A stretch of DNA of 29,924 nucleotides from an uncultured Planctomycetia bacterium (GTDB taxonomy: Bacteria; Omnitrophota; Gorgyraeia; JAHIPI01). The notes beneath the pieces were generated by a model that did not search any database, was not told the origin of the DNA, and saw nothing but the letters and a program-made list of their open reading frames with translations. The stretch covers positions 1-29,924 of the forward strand of contig CAYIQH010000001.1 in the NCBI GenBank assembly GCA_964365575.1, read 5' to 3'. The stretch's first letter is position 1. Each line of letters begins with the position of its first letter. Below, one piece after another: positions 1-21,972 of the stretch. The translations under genes were made by a program, and so were the position numbers.

Positions 1-1091
1 ACGCAGCCTTTTTCAAGAAGGTCAAGGTTTTCCCTGAACAACTTCTTATCCAAGGGCTTGCCGGCCGCTACTTTAAACCGGCCGCTGTGCATCTTTAGTG
101 ACCTGACAGTACACACCAGGACAACTGCATCGGGCTTGAGGCCGCTAGTCCTGCACTTTATATCAAAAAACTTTTCTGCCCCCAAATCAGCGCCAAATCC
201 GCTTTCAGTAACAACATAATCGGAAACCAGAAGCGCCATTTTGTCTGCCAATATTGAGCTATTTCCGTGCGCTATGTTCGCGAATGGGCCTGTATGGATA
301 AGGCACGGCGTATTCTCGGTAGTCTGAACAAGGTTCGGTTTTGCAGCTTCTTTTAAAAGCGCTGCCATCGCGCCCGCAACACCTAAATCCTTTGCGGTGA
401 CCGGCTCACCCTTATGCGTCAGTGCGAGGACGACATCATCAAGCCTGCGTCTCATATCCTCAAGGTTCGTTGAAAGCGCGAGTATAGCCATCAGTTCGCT
501 CGCTACTGTTATATCAAAACCGCTATTACGTAGAAACCCTTCTTTCCCGATGCCGATTTTTACGTTTCGTAATGACCTGTCATTTATATCCAATACCCTG
601 CGCCACGCGATAGTATCGGGATTGATATTCAGTTTATTTCCCCTGAAGAGGGAATTATCCAAAAATGCGGTTAAAAGATTATGTGCTACACCGACCGCAT
701 GTATATCGCCGGTAAAGTGGAGATTAATGTCGCTCGGAGGAAGAACCTGTGAATATCCGCCGCCCGTTCCTACGCCTTTTGAGCCAAAAACAGGCCCCAT
801 TGATGGCTGCCTTATACAGACTATCGATTTCTCTCCCAGCCTGTTCAGCGCCATGGATAAGCCGATCGTCGTAACAGTCTTGCCTTCGCCGAAGGGGCTT
901 GGCGTTATAGCAGAAACCAATATGTACTTCTTCTTGCGCGGAGACGGTTTCTCTTTTAAGAATTCCAGACTTATCTTAGCCTTATACCGACCAACAGCCT
1001 CTATGTACTTAGATGGTATGCCGGCGCGTTTTGCGATCTTTTCAATTTCTACGAGCTTTATCTTTTTTGATATACTCAGATCGGAAGTCAT
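1..1091 (-). CDS. fhs: Formate--tetrahydrofolate ligase, 3'-truncated by window edge
   Basis: Not in the ORF track; translated by hand from ATG at 1091 (ATGA overlap with the rnhB stop): [42 protein letters not shown]..., then SAITPSPFGEGKTVTTIG (P-loop), RQPSMGPVFG, INLHFTGDIHAV and GPFANIAHGNSSILAD, all hallmark Fhs motifs. Confidence 0.96.
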   Translation of the reverse strand, partial: MTSDLSISKKIKLVEIEKIAKRAGIPSKYIEAVGRYKAKISLEFLKEKPSPRKKKYILVSAITPSPFGEGKTVTTIGLSMALNRLGEKSIVCIRQPSMGPVFGSKGVGTGGGYSQVLPPSDINLHFTGDIHAVGVAHNLLTAFLDNSLFRGNKLNINPDTIAWRRVLDINDRSLRNVKIGIGKEGFLRNSGFDITVASELMAILALSTNLEDMRRRLDDVVLALTHKGEPVTAKDLGVAGAMAALLKEAAKPNLVQTTENTPCLIHTGPFANIAHGNSSILADKMALLVSDYVVTESGFGADLGAEKFFDIKCRTSGLKPDAVVLVCTVRSLKMHSGRFKVAAGKPLDKKLFRENLDLLEKGC

Positions 1092-11542: not shown

Positions 11543-12357
11543 TACTTCCGCTTAATAAATTCCAGCCAGCGTTTCTCAAGGTCGCTCACGCCGTTCTTAT
11601 ACTTCCACTGATACGCATTGTTCAGTGCTTCATCCCGTGACTGGCCGTTTTTAAGGAACGTCAGGAATTTACCGAACGACGTCCGTATGTTATCTGTAAT
11701 AAGATGATCTACTACGCTCGCAGATTCCGTATAAAAGAGATCTACATTATCTTCGGGCACCTGCGGCATATTCATTAACTCAGCAAGCCGTATGTAGGAA
11801 CCGTCTTTCACGCTCATCTTTACAAACCTCTTCCGCTTATATAAGGAGCTCTGGTCATCTTCCTCAAACTGCGCCATTCCCTCTTCAAGCCATAGCGGCA
11901 TTCTTTTGCGATCCGTAAACAGGCGGAAAATGATGTGCGTCAGTTCGTGGGGAAATGTCGTCGTAGCCAGATCCGGTGAACCTTCGTAAGCAGAAAACCG
12001 GAGCGGGCTATCTTGCGCCAATCCCGCAGACCATTCCGGCGCGCCTGTGGCTTTGAGGTATTCGGCCTTTGTATTATACAGGTATATTTCGCATTTATCC
12101 TTACCTTCCCACGGCCGGAATTCCGCGCTGCCCAAATGGCCTAATATTTTTTTGTAATAATATTCAGCCTTCCACGTAAGATCATTTGCCAGATCCTTAT
12201 TATGGTGATAAATTACGAAATGCCCTCTTTCCAGTTTTTCAAATTCCGCCGCTCCGGAGGTAGGCCCCGCAAAAAAGGCCGACAAAAGCACAACCACTGC
12301 TATTCTAAGGCATAACTTTGTATACATTGAAATATCCGTTGTTATAGACAAGTTCAA
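11539..12357 (-). CDS. Secreted peptidase MA-like (gluzincin) metallohydrolase, paralog 2
   Basis: HELTH followed by [11 protein letters not shown] (HEXXH plus downstream E zinc ligand) and [10 protein letters not shown]; N-terminal hydrophobic signal. Likely start ATG 12327. Confidence 0.8.
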
Positions 12358-14215
12358 AATGTTTAAGGCTCGGCTTTGTAAATCCGGCGCTCATAGTCCC
12401 GCTGAATTGGCGGCCGGAATGCGCAAACTTGAAATCCTGGCTGTCCGGAGGAAGTGCCTCAAGAATAAATCCTATGTCATCTTTATCTACTTCCATATGC
12501 GCCGTTATATAACGCCAGCTTGAGCGGCCGCCCGCAAGATACGTTCCATGAGGAAATACGAAATAGGCCGCGCCCCACTCTCTGCACAGATTAAATAACG
12601 GATCCTCGCCTTTAGTAAATAGCGTCTCCGCCCACTGCATAGTCTTGTCGCGAATCTCTTTGGATTCCAGTTTTGCATGCAGGTTTACCGCACGCCCCGT
12701 ATATGCCAGAATTTCCGGAGAGTAACGCGGCGGGGCCAGTATTACATCACTCTTTTCGGTGTTGGTTTCTATCCAGTTCAAAAGATCAACGATATACACG
12801 GTATCGCCGATATACGCGCTTGCGCGCGAAACTGCCGCTGCTTGCAACGCTATCACTCCGATAATAAATACTGCGGAAAGCGACTTCCATAATCTCTGCC
12901 GGCCTGTCCTGAGCAAAGTCGAAGGAGGGATCACTATCAATCCGCCCGCCCAGATTGCAATAAGAAATATAGTAAATACCATTACCCTGTTCACAAATAG
13001 ATATAAAACACCGAAGGCGATGAGCAGGTACAATAAAAGATCTATACCATCTTCGGAATAGCTTTTATTTCGGAATGATTTTATAGCAATGTTCAGGATA
13101 AGCGGCAAACCGAGTATCAGCGCCGGCAAAAAATAAGTTACTGCCTCATTTAAAGGCGGAGCACTATGCGCTACATCCCACAACATCCTGCTGTCCGACG
13201 ATAAGAGATTGGGATTAAACGGCTTTTGGCCCATGAACCTGAGCGAATCTATGCCCAGCGAATATACATGATAATATATTCCGAAATGTTTAGATAAAAA
13301 CGAAAAGCCGGCTATAAGAAGAAAGGCTGATGCGATAAATATAACCGCGCGTACGCCTTTATTTATTACGTATCTTTTTACACAGAAAACCGGTAATATC
13401 GCAAAACCTAAAAGCATCGGGGAAGATACCAAAAATGGTATTTCGCGTAAATACGGAATAACTATTCCTGCCGCGGCTGATGATACCATAAGCGCAATGT
13501 ATTGCACGAAAGTATCACGCTTGTCAAACAAGATGGCACGATACGCTATAAACACAAGTGCTATCATGAGGTAGAACTGCGTAAAGTGCCATGCTGCAAG
13601 GGCAATAAACATACATATGCCCGAAAGAATGCTGTAAATATAAACTCTTCGCGAGGAGCATGTTTCGTCTTCGGCAAATGCCATAAAAAGCATATTGCCG
13701 AAAATAAACGGCAGCGCAAACGCCTCTTTAAGAAACCCGAGCCCAATCGTTCTGTTTACCGCTGCCGGAGTCACCGTATAAAAGATAGCAGCCAGTATAG
13801 CCGCAAATCTGTCCTTTGTTATATGCAGTGTAAGCGCATATACGATAAAAAGCGGAATAAGCCCGAATATCATTACAAAATTCCGTACAAATGCGTCGAA
13901 ATCCGTTCCACGGCCGAGTGCCCTGTATAGATATCCGACAAAATACTCCATTACGACGGATTCCTTGCGGAATACCTCAAACCCTTCCGGATACTGGATC
14001 TTATAGCAGACCGCCGGTATCTTTTCGCCCTTCGCGACCAAATCGGCAAAATAATAATGGAATGCATTTATATTCGTAAATGGGGTAAAGGGCCCTATGG
14101 AGCTTCTTTTATAAACATCGGCTCTCAGAAGAAAGCCCAGAATGAATATAAGCGCCAGTATTATTATACTATTTTTTAAGGAATTTGAGCCAGGCATCGT
14201 TAAGCTGCGACACAT
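12305..14215 (-). CDS. Polytopic GT-C glycosyltransferase, STT3/AglB- or DPY19-like
   Basis: About a dozen hydrophobic segments. First external loop NAFHYYF...IQYPEG resembles STT3 EL1; [16 protein letters not shown] and AWHFTQF resemble DPY19 motifs as recalled; C-terminal soluble domain [29 protein letters not shown]. Start may be 14197. Confidence 0.7.
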
Positions 14216-14966
14216 CTTTCAATCGAGGGTAATACGTAGAATAAAGCGCCTCATTGATATTTTTGCCTCCAGAAACCATTTTCTTTGAAAAAGAGGTAAA
14301 CTTCGCTCCGCCATATTCGGAAAGCAAAAAATCCACCAGGCTTGCCGATTCGGCATAAAAAAGGCTATTAATTTTCAGATCTGCGGGATAACTGCTATAT
14401 TTAACGATCTCGGTTGCAGGTATCAGAACGCCTTTTGCCAGCGCTACTTTAACATGCGCCTTATAATCATCGGATCTTTCTTCGTAAGTCGCCATGCCTT
14501 CGTTAAGCCAAAGCGGCACGCGGGCATCTACTTTTAACCCGGCTACGATCTCTTTGAATAGTAAGTGCGTAATCTCATGGGGAAGCACTTCGTCCAAAAG
14601 ATTATTACTCAGGAAGCTGTAGATCTCAGCGGGTTTTCGTGCGGATCTTGGAACTGCGATTCCACCTGTATTGGCAGCATTATAGCCGAGTCTCTTAAGA
14701 TTGTCAAGATAATCTTGATAACTGCCAAAAATATAGACACGCGGCTTCTTCTTGAGCATACTGCCTGATTCAAGGTCATTGAGAAACCGGCTGTAATACT
14801 CCTCCAGGCCGGCTGCGACAGTTTCGGCATCTTTCTGAGCAGGCGCCCATACCGCAAAATTCATGGTATTCGCATGTCCCTTTAAGATTCCGAAAGGGGT
14901 ATCATCGGCCGATCCGCACGATGCTAATGATATTAAGAATGCGAGAAAAAGCAAGGCGAGATTCAT
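14169..14966 (-). CDS. Peptidase MA-like (gluzincin) lipoprotein, paralog 1
   Basis: Lipobox LASC; HEITH...[11 protein letters not shown]; [13 protein letters not shown] is clearly homologous to 11539-12357. Confidence 0.8.
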
Positions 14967-14977
14967 AGGAGGATAGT

Positions 14978-15310
14978 TTAATTGCCCTTGTCTTTTTTGA
15001 TGAGTTTAACGGCAGTACCCGAACCATACAGATATCCGAATCCGCTGTAATAAGTAATGCCGATTACATAGTCAGCGCCCAGATCTTCGGCCTGTCTTTT
15101 TAGTTCGTTGTTTATCTTGTCGGGCATGGTTTCACTGCTTCTGTAAGAGACGACACCCAAAACATCATAATCAACTTTTAAATCAACGGTAGATAATACG
15201 ACCCCGGCCGCCCCTTTCTTGGTTGTATCTTTACCATCGTAACCGAAGGCACAGGAAAGAGAAAAAGCCGTAAACAATATGCTCATCAAAAAGTAAAATA
15301 TTTTTGTCAT
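14978..15310 (-). CDS. Exported YbjQ-like (heavy-metal-binding-domain family) small protein
   Basis: Signal peptide, then DYDVLGVV...ELKRQAEDLGADYVIGI...YGSGTAVKL, the typical YbjQ/UPF0145 pattern. Confidence 0.7.
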   Translation of the reverse strand: MTKIFYFLMSILFTAFSLSCAFGYDGKDTTKKGAAGVVLSTVDLKVDYDVLGVVSYRSSETMPDKINNELKRQAEDLGADYVIGITYYSGFGYLYGSGTAVKLIKKDKGN

Positions 15311-16449
15311 TGCTTTACCTCCTCCCCCTGCGTATCAATAAGGGTGGCTGTCAGCACTACAATTAGATTCTTCTTTTCTCTATTCCGGTATTCGTATTTA
15401 AAAATCGGGCCTATGAGCGGAAGGTCGCCTAAGATCGGGATTTTCCTCTTCACGGTGCCGTCATCAGCGTCCTGTATTAATCCGCCAATCAGGATTGAAT
15501 CGCCGCTCCGGATCATGACCGATGTCTGGGCTGTTCGCGTATCGATAATAGGCCACCCAAGATTAGCGGGAAAATTGGTGGTAGGGTTAGCAGTCAATGC
15601 AATCTGCTGACTAAGCTTTGTGACTTCGGGATGAATGTCTAATGTTATTATGTCACTGCCTTCCATCACAGTGGGCGTAACTTCGAGCGTTACCCCCACT
15701 ATTTCTTCTTCAACTTTATAAGTCTCAACATTAACATAATCTGTTTCAGTAACTCCGAGTAGCGTCGTCGATCCGATTTCAACCTGCGTAGTTTCCACAG
15801 ACGTAGCGTACGGAAAACTCCTTACAACCTGCAGGTTGGCCATCTGGCCGGACAAGGTCGTCACTTTTGGAGCGTGAATAAGATTAGCTTTTCCTTTCTG
15901 CGCAAGCATTTTAAGATAAGCTATCAGTTCAGACCCGTGATAAGCAGCTTTACTTATTAACAACCCTAACCCGGCCGTACTGGCAGCCTGAGCGAATTGA
16001 GCGGCTGTGCTGGCCGTTCCCATAAGGCCAACCACGCTACTTGTCTGGCCCGTAATAAAATTAATACTATGCGGACTGAAGATAGCCGGCTCGTCATGGT
16101 GGAGCAAATCCCAGTCCACCCCCATCTCATCCAGGTCTGTGAAAGTTATCTCCACAAATTTGGCCTCTATCTGGATCTGTTTCGGCCCCACATCCCATTC
16201 CCGTATAAGTTTAAGGGCAAGTTCCTGATTTGACGGCGTATCAGTAATAGTGAGAAGTCCTGATATCTCATCGAGCATTACCTTTCTGCCATCCTGAGGC
16301 GGCAGGTTAGTCTCCAGATATTGCTTGATCGTATATTTCGACAGGTCTTCGTTTTTGTCCTGTGCGAAAGTAAACGCCGTTGCGTAAAAATTCAGAATCC
16401 CGAAGATAAGTGTTATTTTGACAAATTTTCGCATTAATTTACATTCCAT
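15307..16449 (-). CDS. Secretin core (GspD/PilQ family), N3 remnant plus secretin domain, paralog B
   Basis: Own signal peptide (...ATAFTFA-QD); GLLTITDTPSN, PKQIQIEAKFVEI, APKVTTLSGQMA, GVTLEVTP, ITLDIHPEV, LIGGLIQ, KIPILGDLPLIGPIFK, NLIVVLTATLI. Confidence 0.9.
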   Translation of the reverse strand: MECKLMRKFVKITLIFGILNFYATAFTFAQDKNEDLSKYTIKQYLETNLPPQDGRKVMLDEISGLLTITDTPSNQELALKLIREWDVGPKQIQIEAKFVEITFTDLDEMGVDWDLLHHDEPAIFSPHSINFITGQTSSVVGLMGTASTAAQFAQAASTAGLGLLISKAAYHGSELIAYLKMLAQKGKANLIHAPKVTTLSGQMANLQVVRSFPYATSVETTQVEIGSTTLLGVTETDYVNVETYKVEEEIVGVTLEVTPTVMEGSDIITLDIHPEVTKLSQQIALTANPTTNFPANLGWPIIDTRTAQTSVMIRSGDSILIGGLIQDADDGTVKRKIPILGDLPLIGPIFKYEYRNREKKNLIVVLTATLIDTQGEEVKQ

Positions 16450-16457
16450 AATAAAGA

Positions 16458-17603
16458 TTACCTTGTCGCGGCCGGCGGCTCAGCCGCTTTACCTTCGGCC
16501 GTTATCAGCGTCGCCGTTAAAAATATTACGAGGTTCTTCTTTGTCCTGTCTTTATTCTTATACTTAAACAGCTCCCCTATTAACGGTATGTCCCCCAAAA
16601 TAGGGATCTTTTTGTCTGTCGTCTGGTCATCATCCTGAATAAACCCGCCCATTATAACGGTTGAGCCGCTCGTTACCATAACGCTCGTCTGGGCTGTCCT
16701 TGTATCAATGACAGGCCATCCCAACAGCGCAGGCACGCCCATGCCGAATGTTATGGGGTTTGCCGCCGCAGTGGTCGCTCCTTGAAAAATAGGCCTTCTG
16801 GCCTTAAGATTACTCACTTCGGGATGAATGTCCAGCGTTATCACATCGCTGTTACCTGTAACATACGGCGTGACCTCAAGCGTTATACCGGTAATCTTTT
16901 CCTCAATAGTATAGTCAAACTTCCAGATGGGATGCTCCGCCGTGCCGCTATTTTCAAAAGTAACATCACTTACGTAGGGTATGGTCTGCGTTACCTGAAT
17001 ATTTGCCTGCTGGCCTGATAAAGTCGTAACTTTTGGAGCGGATAGCAAATTAGCCCTGTTCTCGGCCGCGAGGGCATGAAGATATGCTTCTATAAAATTC
17101 TTCTTTGACCAATCTGCTATGATCGCGATATCCAGGCCGCGGTTGGTCTGAGGAAATGTATCGGTCGTGGTATCATCCCATATAATATTCCGATAGTCTG
17201 GCATATTCTGGGGGATTCTCTGATTATTCTGAGAAAGTGTGGTATCGACGCTGCCGATATTAATATCGCCGCGCTCGTACAAAAACCATTCAATCCCGAG
17301 TTCATCCAGATCCTCAAATTCAATCTCCACAAACTTCGCTTCTATCATGATCTGTTTCGGCCCTATATCAAACTGCCTGACTAGCTTTTGTATAAGGCGC
17401 TGGTTTGAGGGTGTATCGGTTACTGTCAGTATACCCGTGGCATCGCTGTAATTTATAGAGCGGCCCTCCTGAGGAGGAAGCGCGTCGTTCAGGTACTCTT
17501 CTATTGAAAGCGAGTATTCAGGACTGGCTTCCTGGGCCGAGACCAAGAGATTAGTGGCTGTCATGATTCCAACAGCAAAAATTATCGCCCCCATTATCCG
17601 CAT
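16458..17603 (-). CDS. Secretin core (GspD/PilQ family), N3 remnant plus secretin domain, paralog A
   Basis: Own signal peptide (...LLVSA-QE); GILTVTDTPSN, PKQIMIEAKFVEI, LLSAPKVTTLSGQQA, GITLEVTP, IMGGFIQ, KIPILGDIPLIGELFK, NLVIFLTATLI. Confidence 0.9.
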   Translation of the reverse strand: MRIMGAIIFAVGIMTATNLLVSAQEASPEYSLSIEEYLNDALPPQEGRSINYSDATGILTVTDTPSNQRLIQKLVRQFDIGPKQIMIEAKFVEIEFEDLDELGIEWFLYERGDINIGSVDTTLSQNNQRIPQNMPDYRNIIWDDTTTDTFPQTNRGLDIAIIADWSKKNFIEAYLHALAAENRANLLSAPKVTTLSGQQANIQVTQTIPYVSDVTFENSGTAEHPIWKFDYTIEEKITGITLEVTPYVTGNSDVITLDIHPEVSNLKARRPIFQGATTAAANPITFGMGVPALLGWPVIDTRTAQTSVMVTSGSTVIMGGFIQDDDQTTDKKIPILGDIPLIGELFKYKNKDRTKKNLVIFLTATLITAEGKAAEPPAATR

Positions 17604-17618
17604 ATTTACTCCAAGCTA

Positions 17619-18734
17619 TTACGAGCCGCTGTCACTGCTGGATTTAGTCTCAAATTCTTTAAGCCCTACCTTCCTTACCCGTCTGACGCCATATTTCAGG
17701 CGGTAGGTCCTTGTCACAAGATTTTCTTTTGCCAGTTTTTCGGGAGTAGAGATCCATATATAATTCGGCTCGACTCTGTAACTCAAGTCTGTCGCTCTTA
17801 GCGCGATATTAAGGACTTCCAAAAGCGGCAGCTCGTTTACCGTGCTGAATGTTATTTTGAGCGGAGTACCCTCACCGGCTTTTGCTAACGCGCCCTCATC
17901 AATTACGATAGTCACGCCCGTGATCTCCATAAGCTGCCGTATTACATCGCGTATATCGGCTTCGGCCAGGCTCACAGCCGGCACCATCTTTTCAGAAAGC
18001 TTTTTCATAAGCGCCTGCCTTGCCTTTTCTTCCCTTTCTTCTTCCGGCGATACAATCTCTTCGATCTCTACGGGTTTTCGTTCAGGTTTTACCGGCGGCA
18101 GATATGCCTTTTCAACTTCTAGCATAGCCGTCTTTTCCTGAACTGTTTTTTCCTGCGTTGCTAAATCCGTATCCTTGTCCAGGTCTTTCTGGTCCGCCCT
18201 TGCCTTATCCATGCCGCCCTGTCGCCGCGCCCTCTTGAGCCATTCCAGAATATCCTCATTCTCATAATCCAGCACCAGTGCATTTTGGAAATCCAGAATA
18301 GCGCCGTCAAAATCCTTGGCGCGGTATTTTTCCTGTCCGCTTTTCAATAATTTCTTTGCCATTACGGACGGCGATTCTATCTTCTGACGCTCCCCCGTCT
18401 TGACCTGCACACTTTTAAGGCCCCGCTTTGCGTCCGCGCTATTGGAATCTATCTCCAGCGCCCGCGAGAACTGTTCGGTTGCTGCGTCATAGTTTCCGGC
18501 TTCCAAAAAACCTTTGCCCTCGTCTATGAAATACTTCAGCATAGACTTTTCTTTCTCTTTCTCTATCCTTTTCTCGGAAATCATAAGATCGGCTGCTTTC
18601 TTGGCGTCATCGGCAGCATTAGCATTGGATTGGGTTACAAAAAGAAGTATAAGAGCCGTATAAAAGAGCGATATCGCGCGTCTCTTTTGAATCTTTGTGG
18701 TTGGCATAGACATCTCCGTATTTATTATATGCAA
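17619..18734 (-). CDS. Exported TPR + coiled-coil + STN/N0-like protein (stand-alone secretin N-module)
   Basis: Signal peptide; two TPR blocks (GNYDAATEQFSRALEIDSNS, KDFDGAILDFQNALVLDYEN); STN-like VSLAEADIRDVIRQLMEITGVTIVID...LPLLEVLNIALRATDLSYRVEPNYIWIS; ends TRTYRLKYG...KSSSDSGS. Likely start about 18707. Confidence 0.75.
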   Translation of the reverse strand: MHIINTEMSMPTTKIQKRRAISLFYTALILLFVTQSNANAADDAKKAADLMISEKRIEKEKEKSMLKYFIDEGKGFLEAGNYDAATEQFSRALEIDSNSADAKRGLKSVQVKTGERQKIESPSVMAKKLLKSGQEKYRAKDFDGAILDFQNALVLDYENEDILEWLKRARRQGGMDKARADQKDLDKDTDLATQEKTVQEKTAMLEVEKAYLPPVKPERKPVEIEEIVSPEEEREEKARQALMKKLSEKMVPAVSLAEADIRDVIRQLMEITGVTIVIDEGALAKAGEGTPLKITFSTVNELPLLEVLNIALRATDLSYRVEPNYIWISTPEKLAKENLVTRTYRLKYGVRRVRKVGLKEFETKSSSDSGS

Positions 18735-18735
18735 A

Positions 18736-19488
18736 TTATTTGGTTAATTTTATTTCTGAGCCCTTTGAAAGTAATATAACACAATCGGGCTGAATGTCAA
18801 TCACTTTATAATCGTCTATTACGCCTGCTATCTCGACATTAAACGTTTTCTTTGATATATTATCATACAGCAAAGCGCTTAATTTGTCGCTCAATACCGG
18901 CTTGTTAAGCAGAAAATTTATTTTGCGGCCCTCGGCATCTATCGCCTCAATCCTGTCCTTTGCGACCCTCTGTATCTTGTAGCCGTTTAATGCCCCTCCG
19001 TCTTCAACAAATTTGGTAGTGTCCTTCCAGTTTATCTGCCCGATGAGTTTGTCGGGCATCTCTATGTAACCTTTGTACATAATCGGGAGCGGGACATATC
19101 CTATCGACCGCAGGACAAAATCATGCGCAGTAACCGAAACGACACCTACGGGCGCAACTTCAGGATTATATTTTGCGAACGGGTCACGCTTTACACCTTT
19201 TGCATATGCGTCTTTGGATTCCGGGTATTCGGCTCCTTTAAGAATTCCCTCATATTTTTTTATTTCCTCAAGGCTGACGGAGGGCGATATGCGCATACTC
19301 GTAGCCGTCTCGGATATCTTCTTTTCTATGCTGTCGCGGGTACTCTTAACTGCCTTAAGCCCCACTACGGCAAGAAGCGTCACGACCCATATTGCAATGA
19401 GTGTCTTTAAAACCATCTTTTCAATATTGCTCTTGGGAAGAAGATCTGCTATCTTCTTTATGGCATCCGTTATTTTGGGAACCCTCAT
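18736..19488 (-). CDS. PilP/GspC-like bitopic protein
   Basis: N-terminal TM, RDPF motif, then beta-rich YKGYIE...GYKIQRVAKDRIEAI and a second similar segment DYKVIDIQPDCVIL; sits between the PilO-like gene and the secretin genes. Confidence 0.55.
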   Translation of the reverse strand: MRVPKITDAIKKIADLLPKSNIEKMVLKTLIAIWVVTLLAVVGLKAVKSTRDSIEKKISETATSMRISPSVSLEEIKKYEGILKGAEYPESKDAYAKGVKRDPFAKYNPEVAPVGVVSVTAHDFVLRSIGYVPLPIMYKGYIEMPDKLIGQINWKDTTKFVEDGGALNGYKIQRVAKDRIEAIDAEGRKINFLLNKPVLSDKLSALLYDNISKKTFNVEIAGVIDDYKVIDIQPDCVILLSKGSEIKLTK

Positions 19489-19509
19489 ACTTTAACCGCC
19501 CCTCGACCG

Positions 19510-20352
19510 CTAATTGATTAATTCTGCCTTAACCAGAAATGCGGCCTGAAGCCTGCTCTCCGCAGCCTGGTCCTTATCAAGCACATCCTTGGTCTTATTA
19601 ATATCAAGATCGTCCACGACGAAAATAAACGGCGAGACTTTCAGCCGGTACAGAAAATCCATCAACTTTGAATATGTGCAGGTGATCTTAAATGAAACAG
19701 CTATCTCTTCGTAAATTTTTGTTTTTCCCGGCTCGGGCGGAAGAGGCAGCGCCTCAGCTATGTTTCCGGCATTAGGCATAGGCGGCATAACCTGCGCATG
19801 GGCTTCTTCCTTTTTAACGTCTTCTCCGATAAAACTTATTTCATCGAGCGAAACCACGCCGGTAAGCGTCATCAGGTATATCAGCTCTTCCAGCACTTTG
19901 AGTCTCTTTATGAGATATGGTATTTCCATAGAGTCAGAGAGTTCTGTTTCGTATTTCGTAAACCCCAGTGAGTCGGGCAGGCCCAGAGAAAAATCCTTTG
20001 CCTCTTCGCGCAATTTTTTCTGCGTCTGTATCAGCTTCTCCTTGAACTGCAGCGAATCCATGCTCTCGGGCGGCACTTCTTCGCTGAGCGGTGACGCATG
20101 CGCTAGTTTCAATCTGCTGTATGCACTCTTGAGCTTGTTCCGTTCGTCCTCAAGAAAAGACAACGAATTCTCAGTAAGTGGCATCTTACTTTTCTTGACA
20201 AATCCGTCTATCGTCCCGCTTGTCGTCATTATCTCTTTGCCTATCTTCGCATCCTGAAGCATGAAAAAGACGAACAAGCCGATAGCAAACACGAGCGCCG
20301 CTGCCAGTATGCCTATAACAACCACTGAAAACAGGTTTCTCTTAAGTATCAC
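19510..20352 (-). CDS. PilO-like / Amuc_1100-family protein
   Basis: N-terminal TM and coiled coil, LQFKEKL...SLGFTKYETE...LKVLEELI, ferredoxin-like end ITCTYSKLMDFLYRL...FIFVVDDLDI; follows PilMN. Confidence 0.7.
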   Translation of the reverse strand: MILKRNLFSVVVIGILAAALVFAIGLFVFFMLQDAKIGKEIMTTSGTIDGFVKKSKMPLTENSLSFLEDERNKLKSAYSRLKLAHASPLSEEVPPESMDSLQFKEKLIQTQKKLREEAKDFSLGLPDSLGFTKYETELSDSMEIPYLIKRLKVLEELIYLMTLTGVVSLDEISFIGEDVKKEEAHAQVMPPMPNAGNIAEALPLPPEPGKTKIYEEIAVSFKITCTYSKLMDFLYRLKVSPFIFVVDDLDINKTKDVLDKDQAAESRLQAAFLVKAELIN

Positions 20353-21616
20353 TCTTGCCTCTCTTATCCGGAGGAACTATTTTCATTTTTATCGTGAATG
20401 CGCGTATATCTTCGGTTGACTCCTTATCCTTCAGCACATTTGCGGACTCAATTTTTACATCCGTGAAATACCCGGATTTTATCAGCATATCCTTGAAGGT
20501 GTTTATATTCTCAAATGTGCCTTCGGTCTTGCCGTTCACAGCAATATTATCTCCGTCCCGGCTTATCTCCGTAAGCCAGAGATTATCCGGCAGGATCTTC
20601 ATCATTTCCGCAATCACCCTGATCGCCTCGTCGCGTTTAGTCGAAACTTTTTCTATGAATTCCAGGCGTGCCTTCAAATCGCCCACTTCGGCCTGAAGGC
20701 TCTCTATCTCCTTATTGAAGCTTGTATACCGGTCTATGAGTGCGGATGTCTTCATAAGGCTTCTGGTCTTATCCCGGCTGCCCCACATCATAAAATGCGC
20801 CAAAGTCGCAAAAATACATATAACTACGATCAGCGATCCGAATATATACCATCTTTTTTTCTCAAACTCTTTGGATTTCAGTATCTCTCTCGGGAGAAGG
20901 TTTGTCTTAGTGCAAAGGGGCGTGACTGTCTTTAGCGCAAGCCCTATAGCGGCATCCATCCTTCTCGCCAAATTTTCCGTGGGGTGGAAATCTATATCGC
21001 TCTTTATCTTATCAAATATATTTGCCGGCCTTGTGGGTATATCGAGGTTTTCATGTATAAACCTGTCCATATTTTTGATCTTGGAAGCACCGCCCGTAAG
21101 AAGAACGTCCTTTATCACTTTAGTCTCGCCAAACTGCGACTTATAATAACCAATGGACTTTGATATGTCGCCCAGCATCTCTATCAGGACCGGATTTATC
21201 GCGTCTGATATGTCGGCGGCGTGCGGCGACAGCGTTCGCTCCTCGGAATCCATGGCGATTATGCCTTCTTTCCTCTTAATCTGCTCCGCCTCTTTAAAGC
21301 TGATCTTAAGATGCGCTGCTATGGCTTTCGTAAGGTCATTACCCCCTATGAGTATGCTTCGGGTCCATATCTTATGCTCCTCCACTATTATGATATTGGT
21401 GTTCTTTGCGCCAATATCAAGTATGAGCTTGTCTTTAATCTCTCCCACGAAGTCCAGGGCATTAAAAATTGAAAAATAGGAGACTTCAACGAAATCAGTT
21501 TCAAGGGGCGTATCCGCGAGCAGTTTCAGTTTTTCCTCTACTATATCTTTTTTCACAGCTACCAGAATTACATCCGTTTCCGGGCTGTCATACGCTTCAA
21601 AGACTCCGTAACTCAT
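20342..21616 (-). CDS. PilM C-terminal part fused to PilN (second piece of an apparently frameshifted pilM-pilN gene)
   Basis: VILVAVKK, LILDIGAKNTNI, IGGNDLTKAI, EAEQIK, ISKSIGYY, LLTGGAS (actin-like ATPase motifs), TNLLP, a TM segment, then PilN-like LPDNLWLTEI. Confidence 0.85.
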   Translation of the reverse strand: MSYGVFEAYDSPETDVILVAVKKDIVEEKLKLLADTPLETDFVEVSYFSIFNALDFVGEIKDKLILDIGAKNTNIIIVEEHKIWTRSILIGGNDLTKAIAAHLKISFKEAEQIKRKEGIIAMDSEERTLSPHAADISDAINPVLIEMLGDISKSIGYYKSQFGETKVIKDVLLTGGASKIKNMDRFIHENLDIPTRPANIFDKIKSDIDFHPTENLARRMDAAIGLALKTVTPLCTKTNLLPREILKSKEFEKKRWYIFGSLIVVICIFATLAHFMMWGSRDKTRSLMKTSALIDRYTSFNKEIESLQAEVGDLKARLEFIEKVSTKRDEAIRVIAEMMKILPDNLWLTEISRDGDNIAVNGKTEGTFENINTFKDMLIKSGYFTDVKIESANVLKDKESTEDIRAFTIKMKIVPPDKRGKSDT

Positions 21617-21972
21617 ATTACTTCATTAATGGGAAACGGCACCTGAAGCTGGGCTTCGTATTGGATGATTTGCTCGATTTTGCTTTTGGCTATCTTGGGG
21701 ATTTTTAGGAATCGTATGAAGACCGACTGGCTGGGGATGGAGAGCGCTACGCTGCCGGAATCTATCTGCTCCTCCGCAAGAAGTTTCTTGAGCTTGTCTT
21801 TGATAATGCTGGTTCTTTTCTCGGGATCGTCAAATGCGGGGTCTATGTCAAGCTCAATAAGGCAGCCTTTAGAGAGATGGTACCCATCGCGCGTCTTTTT
21901 AACTTCTACAAGCTTTATAGCGCTTTCGCCTATGTCAATTCCGAAATATCTTTTGCTCTTAAAATTCAACAT
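21613..21972 (-). CDS. pilM: PilM N-terminal fragment
   Basis: FGIDIGESAIKLVEV, VALSIPSQSVFIR, QIIQYEAQLQVPFPINEVI; stops exactly where the conserved W-x-Y is expected. Confidence 0.88.
   Translation of the reverse strand: MLNFKSKRYFGIDIGESAIKLVEVKKTRDGYHLSKGCLIELDIDPAFDDPEKRTSIIKDKLKKLLAEEQIDSGSVALSIPSQSVFIRFLKIPKIAKSKIEQIIQYEAQLQVPFPINEVI

What the first reader, a model, noticed from the sequence alone, without database searches (positions are those of the whole stretch)
16458..18734. Secretin split inside its N3 domain: a free TPR-STN module ends in the first N3 strand
Seen: 17619-18734 has TPRs and an STN/N0-like domain and ends TRTYRLKYG...KSSSDSGS-stop. After a 15-nt gap the next gene starts with its own signal peptide and then YLNDALPPQEGRSINYSDATGILTVTDTPSN, the remainder of an N3 domain. 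Knowledge: GspD/PilQ secretins are normally one chain (N0-...-N3-secretin), and N3 often carries a disordered Ser/Gly-rich loop after its first elements. Inference: the gene was cut in that loop, and N3 could be rebuilt in trans by strand complementation, giving a detachable periplasmic adaptor. A separate signal peptide argues against a simple frameshift artefact.
Basis: partly seen in the sequence, partly recalled or inferred. Interest (0 to 1): 0.85.

Follow-up and report, generated by a model that had tools for sequence, protein, structure and literature searches.

The report
Pilus secretin split inside a domain
In this uncultured Omnitrophota bacterium the outer-membrane pore protein of a type IV pilus-like machine is one chain in relatives, but here it is three conserved genes, cut inside a small periplasmic domain that probably re-forms when one chain donates a beta-strand to the other.

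Summary
On the minus strand, gene 17619-18734 encodes signal peptide, TPR, N0/STN domain and the strand LVTRTYRLKYG, followed by 22 more residues. Two stops and 15 nt later, gene 16458-17603 starts with its own signal peptide. Its mature end begins directly at helix a1 of the same N domain, followed by the secretin pore. A second, paralogous core lies at 15307-16449.

The split is not an artefact.
- About 90 N-module clusters and several hundred short cores show it.
- Junctions differ between relatives.
- Independent assemblies bridge the junction without indels.

Single-chain relatives (707-893 aa, Amuc_1098/PilQ type) are colinear with the two chains. One is a positional orthologue in another Omnitrophota genome. 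The cut falls in their hypervariable loop between b1 and a1.

AlphaFold2 leaves the tail disordered in the N-module alone. In a read-through construct it becomes a strand in the canonical b1 position, at moderate confidence. Complementation in trans is therefore likely but not shown.

All 12 informative split loci from the sampled genomes carry exactly two cores. The two fused loci examined carry one.

The known rhizobial "split secretin" is cut between domains, not inside one. The scan has already found this architecture in several other Omnitrophota genomes. I found no paper describing it. Verdict: new variant of a known kind.

The parts
17619..18734 (-). N-module gene: signal peptide, TPR helices, long helix, N0/STN domain, strand b1 and conserved tail. 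Length 371 aa from the TTG start; the start is probably M10 at 18707, giving 362 aa.
   Evidence: ORF. Pfam TPR_11, STN and weak GspD N0. 90 homologues of about 360-375 aa. AF2 model with mean pLDDT 84. Maps to positions 156-370 of the 805-position Amuc_1098 family profile.
17724..17990 (-). N0/STN domain (residues 249-337)
   Evidence: AF2 strands and helices at 255-337. Structural matches to GspD N0 3ezj (Z 8.4), InvG N0 2y9k (Z 8.6), FpvA/PupA signalling domains and FecR-C 4m0n (Z 10.2), and to PilQ N0 4ar0.
17688..17723 (-). Strand b1 of the split N domain (residues 338-349, ENLVTRTYRLKYG). It is the most conserved stretch of the N-module.
   Evidence: Mean majority fraction 0.84 over 80 sequences. 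Coil with pLDDT below 50 in the N-module alone. Strand E96-101 in the read-through model. Solved N3+secretin structures align from model residue 94-96 onwards.
17646..17687 (-). Second conserved tail segment (residues 350-363, VRRVRKVGLKEFET). Its partner is unknown.
   Evidence: Conservation 0.75. R351 is invariant; R354, V356 and L358 are at 90% or more. Corresponds to GxGxFxxF in many fused homologues. Low pLDDT in both models.
17604..17645 (-). The break: variable Ser-rich end (KSSSDSGS), TAA, in-frame TAG, and a 15-nt spacer with a GGAG ribosome-binding site
   Evidence: Sequence. Last 8 residues have conservation 0.28. Falls in the hypervariable linker of fused homologues. Bridged without indels by contigs of runs X2, X3 and X5.
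16458..17603 (-). Secretin core A (381 aa): signal peptide (about 1-23), remainder of the N domain (a1-b2-b3-a2, about 32-80), secretin pore domain (177-367)
   Evidence: Pfam Secretin E=1.5e-45 and Secretin_N positions 14-69 of 69. 776 homologues, the best 120 all 231-414 aa (three of them under 343 aa, two of those labelled partial). In homologues the mature N-terminus begins 2-6 residues before a1. AF2 N-domain elements H162-169, E177-181, E186-191, H193-207 with pLDDT 79-87.
15307..16449 (-). Secretin core B (380 aa), an old paralogue of core A (about 44-45% identity) with the same truncated N domain and its own signal peptide
   Evidence: The A and B subclades have moderate support, SH-aLRT 85 and 86. 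Two cores follow the N-module at all 12 informative loci fetched from the sampled phylum genomes.
14978..15310 (-). Small 110-aa protein with a lipoprotein-like signal (…FSLSC). It overlaps the end of core B by 4 nt. Candidate pilotin.
   Evidence: ORF. A 102-110 aa gene lies at the same place in four of the five relatives' loci examined; it is absent from the divergent locus. No family match. The function is an inference.
18736..19488 (-). 250-aa membrane-anchored protein between the PilO-like gene and the N-module. Possible PilP/GspC-type partner of N0.
   Evidence: ORF. A 225-250 aa gene lies at the same place in relatives. No Pfam or NCBIfam match. The function is an inference from position.
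19510..20352 (-). Amuc_1100-family / GspM-PilO-like protein
   Evidence: Pfam T2SSM_b E=3e-6. NCBIfam Amuc_1100_fam E=2e-15 and GspM E=2e-7.
20342..21972 (-). PilM-PilN fusion, broken here into two ORFs of 119 and 424 aa
   Evidence: PilM_2 profile positions 1-109 in the first ORF; positions 122-339 plus PilN in the second. One gene of 536-556 aa in relatives.

Best explanation
This is a fixed gene fission of a PVC-type type IV pilus secretin (Amuc_1098/PilQ family; layout TPR, N0, one N domain, secretin pore).

The ancestral single chain carried a long disordered loop between strand b1 and helix a1 of its last N domain. In one Omnitrophota lineage that loop was replaced by a stop codon, a ribosome-binding site and a new signal peptide. 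The pore half exists in two copies (A and B).

All three chains are exported separately through Sec. In the periplasm the conserved, intrinsically unfolded tail of the N-module inserts its b1 strand into the four-element N domain of a core. This restores the b-a-b-b-a fold and tethers N0, and through it the PilM-N/PilO/PilP-like inner-membrane platform, to the outer-membrane pore.

Shown: the split, its position, its conservation, and the homology to fused forms. Inferred: assembly in trans, which core accepts the strand, and the stoichiometry.
For: 1. The anatomy is complementary.
- The N-module ends with b1.
- Core Secretin_N matches start at profile position 14.
- Mature cores of homologues begin 2-6 residues before a1, so there is no room for their own b1.

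2. Twelve single-chain TPR-STN-Secretin_N-Secretin proteins (707-893 aa) are colinear with the N-module plus core at 26-34% identity. The break falls in their hypervariable 0-70 aa linker.

3. On the 805-position Amuc_1098 profile the N-module covers positions 156-370. The best-scoring stretches of cores A and B cover 660-802 and 554-804. A fused relative covers 2-804 in one stretch.

4. There is a positional orthologue. In another Omnitrophota genome the order PilMN, Amuc_1100-like, 707-aa fused secretin, PolA matches the order PilMN, Amuc_1100-like, 225-aa gene, N-module, core A, core B, PolA of the split loci.

5. The tail is the most conserved part of the N-module (0.84 and 0.75, against 0.51 for the TPR region). 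Yet AF2 predicts it as coil with pLDDT below 50 when the N-module is alone. This is the signature of a binding segment.

6. In the read-through model the tail forms strand 96-101.
- Solved N3+secretin chains (pIV 7ofh, GspD 5wq9, PilQ 6ve2, InvG 6pee) superpose from model residue 94-96 onwards.
- The 62-residue N domain of MxiD aligns 59 residues over model 95..208 at 2.5 A.

7. It is not an artefact.
Against: - The strand is placed with only moderate confidence: the pLDDT block covering it averages 70 and the next block 52.
- The model was a covalent fusion with an unpaired alignment. AlphaFold may simply have completed a familiar fold.
- No coordinates could be inspected. The pairing is inferred from structural-alignment ranges.
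- No experiment exists.
- With one N-module gene per two core genes, all translationally coupled, a simple 1:1 completion of every core is not guaranteed.
- The second conserved tail segment has no assigned partner.
Confidence: 0.7

Rival explanations
1. The N-module is an independent accessory protein, for example a TPR pilotin or a peptidoglycan or platform adaptor. The cores work with a truncated four-element N domain. The b1-like tail binds another partner, such as the PilP-like protein, or it augments the edge of a neighbouring subunit rather than completing the fold.
For: - TPR proteins such as PilF/PilW are separate pilotins in other type IV pilus systems. There are weak hits to PilW and PilF.
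- The AF2 placement of b1 has only moderate confidence.
- The gene ratio of one N-module to two cores means not every core need receive a strand.
Against: - The whole N-module, including its TPR part, is colinear with the N-terminal half of single-chain secretins of the same family. It is therefore a secretin fragment, not a pilotin.
- The tail is homologous to b1 of those proteins and is its most conserved segment.
- Structural alignment puts it in the canonical b1 position.
Confidence: 0.2
2. Assembly or sequencing artefact, or a recent pseudogene: a frameshift or nonsense mutation in a normally continuous secretin gene.
For: - The genome is a low-coverage, 58%-complete bin.
- The neighbouring pilMN gene does look frameshifted.
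Against: - 90 N-module clusters and several hundred short cores show the split.
- Each half has its own signal peptide.
- Junctions differ between relatives: a 15-nt gap here, 4-nt and longer overlaps elsewhere.
- There are two consecutive in-frame stops.
- Contigs from other samples and studies bridge the junction without indels.
Confidence: 0.01

Closest known systems
Amuc_1098-family PilQ of the PVC type IV pilus-like cluster (Akkermansia muciniphila Amuc_1098-1102; NCBIfam NF042912), and the single-chain TPR-STN-Secretin_N-Secretin proteins found here (P0274, P0341 and others)
   Same: - Same domain order: TPR, N0, one N domain, pore.
- Same neighbours: PilM-PilN, Amuc_1100-family protein, and in some loci Amuc_1102.
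- Same b1 ... loop ... a1 layout.
- Colinear alignment at 26-34% identity (PMC10688800 for the Akkermansia cluster).
   Different: - There it is one polypeptide and one gene. Here it is three genes, with the chain broken in the b1-a1 loop, a new signal peptide, and a duplicated pore half.
- Scores are far below the family cut-off: 55, 160 and 135 bits against 750.
Rhizobial and Pseudomonas syringae T3SS 'split secretin' RhcC1 (NolW) / RhcC2 (PMC3574062, PMC3973906)
   Same: A secretin function encoded by more than one gene and conserved in a lineage.
   Different: - Type III system, with the genes far apart.
- On pNGR234a, NolW is N0 plus a complete Secretin_N (profile positions 1-63 of 69).
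- RhcC2 is a full Tad-like secretin (T2SS-T3SS_pil_N, BON, Secretin).
- The division is therefore between domains. No fold is shared by two chains, and the pore half is not duplicated.
Canonical type IVa PilQ and type II GspD secretins
   Same: Secretin pore domain, a ring-building N domain next to it, N0 at the periplasmic end contacting PilP or GspC, and a pilMNOP-like operon.
   Different: - They are a single chain.
- They carry AMIN domains or N1-N2 repeats instead of TPR.
- They form homo-oligomers from one gene.
Donor-strand complementation in chaperone-usher pili, and the predicted CpaI-CpaC contact in the Caulobacter Tad machine (PMC13170226)
   Same: The working principle: an incomplete beta-sheet fold in one periplasmic chain is completed or extended by a strand from another.
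   Different: Unrelated folds and families. There the incomplete fold is an Ig-like pilin or a beta-sandwich, not a secretin N domain that is whole in relatives.

Membership tests
Secretin superfamily (Pfam PF00263) | C-terminal secretin pore domain | tested here: met
   Core A scores 155 bits and core B 130 bits against a cut-off of 27.5, covering the full-length profile. The fold matches InvG, GspD, pIV and PilQ at Z 10-12.5.
Secretin superfamily | A complete b-a-b-b-a N domain (PF03958) preceding the pore in the same chain | tested here: not met
   The cores match only profile positions 14-69 of 69, at 25.6 and 19.8 bits (cut-off 28.2). Mature N-termini begin 2-6 residues before a1. Strand b1 sits on the upstream gene.
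N0 / STN domain (PF07660, PF21305) | STN/N0 fold at the periplasmic end | tested here: met
   The sequence score is just under the cut-off (26.8 against 28.4 bits). The modelled domain superposes on GspD N0 (Z 8.4, 1.9 A), InvG N0, TonB-receptor signalling domains and PilQ N0 4ar0.
Amuc_1098-family type IV pilus outer membrane protein (NCBIfam NF042912, equivalog) | One chain covering the 805-position profile at 750 bits or more | tested here: not met
   N-module: 54.8 bits, positions 156-370. Core A: 159.6 bits. Core B: 134.9 bits. The cores' best-scoring stretches cover positions 660-802 (A) and 554-804 (B). They cover complementary parts of the profile, far below the cut-off.
Amuc_1098-family cluster | Operon with PilM(-PilN) and an Amuc_1100-family protein | tested here: met
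   PilM_2, PilN, T2SSM_b and Amuc_1100_fam matches upstream. Same order in relatives.
Type IVa PilQ (TIGR02515) | Score over the cut-off, and AMIN domains at the N-terminus | tested here: not met
   163 and 123 bits against a cut-off of 284. No AMIN match; the N-terminus is TPR instead.
Rhizobial split secretin RhcC1/RhcC2 | Type III secretion context, with the division between whole domains | tested here: not met
   No T3SS genes lie in the operon. NolW carries a complete Secretin_N, and RhcC2 is a Tad-type secretin.
Type IV pilus / type II secretion machine (function) | Motor ATPase and platform protein in the same genome | tested here: met
   Five T2SSE matches over the cut-off and two T2SSF genes on contigs C8 and C54. 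Pilins were not searched for. That these motors serve this secretin is an inference.

The most novel reading that the evidence does not exclude
The pore is an obligate hetero-oligomer in which one N-module serves two different cores. Its tail carries two conserved strand-like segments: b1 (TRTYRLKY) and RKVxLxEF. One would complete the N domain of core A. The other would dock on core B, or on the neighbouring subunit.

This would halve the number of N0 domains relative to pore subunits. The symmetry of the periplasmic gate would then be uncoupled from that of the barrel.

The reading fits three observations:
- the invariant 1:1:1, translationally coupled gene set;
- the fact that split loci always carry two cores while the two fused loci examined carry one;
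- the split-specific extension of tail conservation.
Probability: 0.15. Interest if true: 0.8.

Novelty: new variant of a known kind. Interest (0 to 1): 0.55.

Why it matters
Secretins are regarded as single-gene homo-oligomeric pores. Here a whole lineage has kept, over deep divergence, a pore whose periplasmic coupling module is a separate chain. That chain would be held only by a shared fold, and there are two non-identical pore subunits.

If the predicted assembly holds, it would be a natural split-domain system in the periplasm. It would be a tractable case for asking three questions:
- how N0 rings are coupled to pores;
- whether secretin rings can be heteromeric;
- how symmetry mismatch with the inner-membrane platform is handled.

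It also warns annotators that 360-400 aa "GspD" proteins in Omnitrophota are halves of a larger unit.

Tried and rejected
- MAFFT alignments of the read-through construct with full-length core homologues (A4 and A5) put the cores' signal peptides and helix a1 onto the N-module. They were discarded. Trimming the homologues' signal peptides gave a correct alignment (A6), which was used for folding.
- Searching pNGR234a for the rhizobial split secretin by guessed coordinates failed twice. A family search of the record found it.
- Literature searches for Omnitrophota with secretin or PilQ, and for secretin strand complementation, found no description of this architecture.
- A Foldseek search of the N-module alone gave only generic TPR matches plus PilQ N0 and PilF. 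This gives no specific clue to the role of the TPR part.
- I first thought that the cores of the divergent L007-type lineage keep their own b1. That rested on a poorly aligned segment. Their N-module tail has the same b1 plus GxxFxF layout. The point is left open.
- No third structure job was available to fold the N-module tail with both cores together.
Full report
**What is there**

Positions 14978-21972 of the minus strand form one tightly packed operon. In order:
- PilM-PilN, here in two ORFs.
- An Amuc_1100-family / GspM-like protein.
- A 250-aa membrane-anchored protein with no family match.
- The N-module gene (17619-18734).
- Secretin core A (16458-17603).
- Secretin core B (15307-16449).
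- A 110-aa lipoprotein-like protein.

Downstream are a Peptidase_MA_2 gene and a GT-C gene.

The N-module has a Sec signal peptide (…QSNANA|AD), TPR repeats, an STN/N0 domain, and then ENLVTRTYRLKYGVRRVRKVGLKEFETKSSSDSGS. It ends with TAA and an in-frame TAG. A 15-nt spacer with GGAG precedes the ATG of core A.

Core A starts with a signal peptide (…LLVSA|QEA). After eight to ten residues comes SIEEYLNDALPPQEGRSINYSDATGILTVTDTPSNQRLIQKLVRQFD.

Pfam matches the Secretin_N model in both cores only from profile position 14 to 69. The strand that opens that domain is missing. The incomplete genome holds only these two secretin domains.

**The split is real and old**

- The N-module has 90 clustered homologues. 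Nearly all are 350-390 aa, come from Omnitrophota metagenomes, and range down to about 35% identity.
- Core A has 776 homologues. The best 120 are all short, 231-414 aa; three are under 343 aa and two of those are labelled partial.
- In five examined loci of close to very distant relatives the order is the same: PilMN, Amuc_1100-like, a 225-250 aa gene, N-module, core, core. A 102-110 aa gene follows in four of the five; the most divergent locus lacks it.
- The junction differs between genomes: a 15-nt gap here, 4-nt ATGA overlaps or longer overlaps elsewhere. This excludes a shared sequencing error.
- Contigs assembled from other samples and studies cover the junction with no insertion or deletion. 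Two are identical to the window and one differs by 15 substitutions.
- Among 201 sampled species genomes of the phylum, 14 have a strong N-module match in an open frame far shorter than a fused secretin (122-522 aa; two are cut by contig ends).

**Where the cut lies**

I searched about 1.8 billion representative proteins with a profile of N0 plus tail. It returned single-chain proteins of 707-893 aa with TPR, STN, Secretin_N and Secretin domains. One is annotated as Candidatus Omnitrophota.

Aligned with the N-module C-terminus joined to core A, twelve of them are colinear at 26-34% identity. After N0 comes (V/E)T(R/K)xYxL, which is b1. In many a GxGxFxxF segment follows. Then comes a hypervariable, low-complexity linker of 0 to about 70 residues. 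Then (S/T)I(K/E)D(V/I)L…P.P.GSK…RTGTL.V.NTP.N, which is a1-b2-b3.

The stop, spacer and signal peptide of the window fall inside that linker. Two fused proteins have almost no linker, so b1 and a1 are normally adjacent.

The mature ends of core homologues begin only 2-6 residues before a1. They cannot supply their own b1.

The Amuc_1098-family profile of NCBIfam gives the same picture. The N-module covers positions 156-370. The best-scoring stretches of the cores cover 660-802 (A) and 554-804 (B). A fused relative covers 2-804 in one stretch.

A fused 707-aa gene occupies the same chromosomal slot in another Omnitrophota genome, between the Amuc_1100-like gene and polA. Another fused gene sits in an Amuc_1102/PilM/Amuc_1100 cluster like that of Akkermansia (PMC10688800).

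**Does the domain re-form in trans?**

The tail is the best-conserved part of the N-module:

| Region | Mean majority fraction |
|---|---|
| b1 | 0.84 |
| Next 14 residues | 0.75 |
| N0 | 0.74 |
| TPR | 0.51 |
| Last eight residues | 0.28 |

AlphaFold2 on the N-module alone (80-sequence alignment, mean pLDDT 84) gives confident TPR helices and N0. It leaves residues 338-371 as coil, with pLDDT below 50 at 341-345 and 348-350.

The second model was a read-through construct: N0 plus tail, X, then core A with its signal peptide acting as a linker, using an unpaired alignment. There residues 340-345 become a strand (E96-101). The pLDDT block holding it averages 70. The core's a1-b2-b3-a2 scores 79-87.

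Coordinates could not be inspected, but structural alignment locates the strand:
- Solved chains that start at N3 superpose from model residue 94-96 onwards. These are pIV 7ofh, GspD 5wq9/5wq8/5w68, PilQ 6ve2 and InvG 6pee/6dv6.
- The isolated 62-residue N domain of MxiD aligns 59 residues over model 95..208 at 2.5 A. Once the low-confidence linker is removed, this requires both the tail strand and the core elements.

This is consistent with strand complementation. It remains a prediction from a covalently linked construct at moderate confidence.

**The two cores**

A tree of cores and of the pore halves of fused proteins puts the main split cores in one clade (SH-aLRT 100). Inside it are an A-type and a B-type subclade, with support of 85 and 86. 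The duplication is therefore old.

In the divergent L007-type lineage the two cores are each other's sisters (99). That means either a separate duplication or gene conversion.

At every locus fetched from the sampled phylum genomes that holds an N-module and enough flank (12 of 12), exactly two cores follow it. The two fused loci examined carry a single secretin gene.

The genes overlap or nearly abut, which suggests coupled translation. With one N-module per two cores, either half of the N domains stay incomplete, or synthesis is unequal, or the second conserved tail segment serves the second core. I could not test this.

**Comparison with what is known**

The phrase "split secretin" exists for rhizobial and some Pseudomonas syringae T3SS clusters (PMC3574062, PMC3973906). 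I looked at the pNGR234a genes:
- NolW/RhcC1 is N0 plus a complete Secretin_N (profile positions 1-63 of 69).
- RhcC2 is a Tad-like secretin with T2SS-T3SS_pil_N and BON domains, next to a CpaD-family gene.

That division is between whole domains, in a different system, with distant genes. It is a precedent for multi-gene secretins but not for a fold shared by two chains.

The working principle resembles donor-strand complementation of chaperone-usher pilins, and the predicted CpaI-CpaC contact in the Tad machine (PMC13170226). Literature searches found nothing on this Omnitrophota architecture.

Earlier follow-ups of this scan reached the same reading on other Omnitrophota genomes. Their pointer to NF042912 was checked here.

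**Context and function**

The genome encodes several T2SSE ATPases and two T2SSF platform proteins on other contigs. A pilus or secretion motor is therefore available. That these motors work with this secretin is an inference.

N0 domains of secretins contact PilP or GspC in studied systems (established knowledge). The unannotated 250-aa protein just upstream is a positional candidate for that role.

**Verdict**

- The placement of the cut and its non-artefactual nature are well supported.
- Re-formation of the domain in trans is the most likely mechanism (about 0.65-0.7) but rests on prediction.
- The "detachable adaptor" idea is untested.
- It is a new variant of a known kind, of moderate interest.

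Noticed in passing
window 20342-21972 (-), junction at 21613-21616: PilM-PilN is broken into 119-aa and 424-aa ORFs with an ATGA overlap inside the PilM fold (PilM_2 profile positions 1-109 and 122-339). In a 78%-identical relative and in distant relatives it is one gene of 536-556 aa. This is probably a frameshift, either a sequencing error at about 5x depth or real decay.
   Followed up: partly
L013:13670-15097 and L013:1373-2077 (pNGR234a): The C-half of the rhizobial 'split secretin' (RhcC2/Y4xJ) has T2SS-T3SS_pil_N, BON and Secretin domains and is followed by a CpaD-family gene. It looks like a complete Tad-type secretin rather than a fragment of a T3SS secretin. NolW carries N0 plus a whole N domain.
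   Followed up: partly
P0211, P0212, P0214, P0218 and others: Many proteins of 700-2500 aa carry 4-8 tandem copies of an N0/STN-like domain closely related to the one in the N-module. Their nature was not examined.
   Followed up: no
L007:7335-9640, L023, L025: In a divergent lineage with a 438-aa N-module, the two cores are sister paralogues rather than A-type and B-type. This suggests an independent duplication or gene conversion.
   Followed up: partly
P0304 (OED35662.1) and P0318: Longer N-modules (615 and 690 aa) also end just after N0, b1 and a short tail. One is from a 'PVC group bacterium (ex Bugula neritina AB1)'. The same cut may therefore occur outside the main Omnitrophota clade.
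   Followed up: no
window 12305-14966 (-): A Peptidase_MA_2 gene and a DPY19-like GT-C gene follow the secretin genes here and in a 78%-identical relative. More distant relatives have Peptidase_MA_2 or polA there instead.
   Followed up: no
window 17604-17621: The N-module ends with two consecutive in-frame stops (TAA TAG), and the next ATG is in the same frame. Read-through is doubly blocked.
   Followed up: yes
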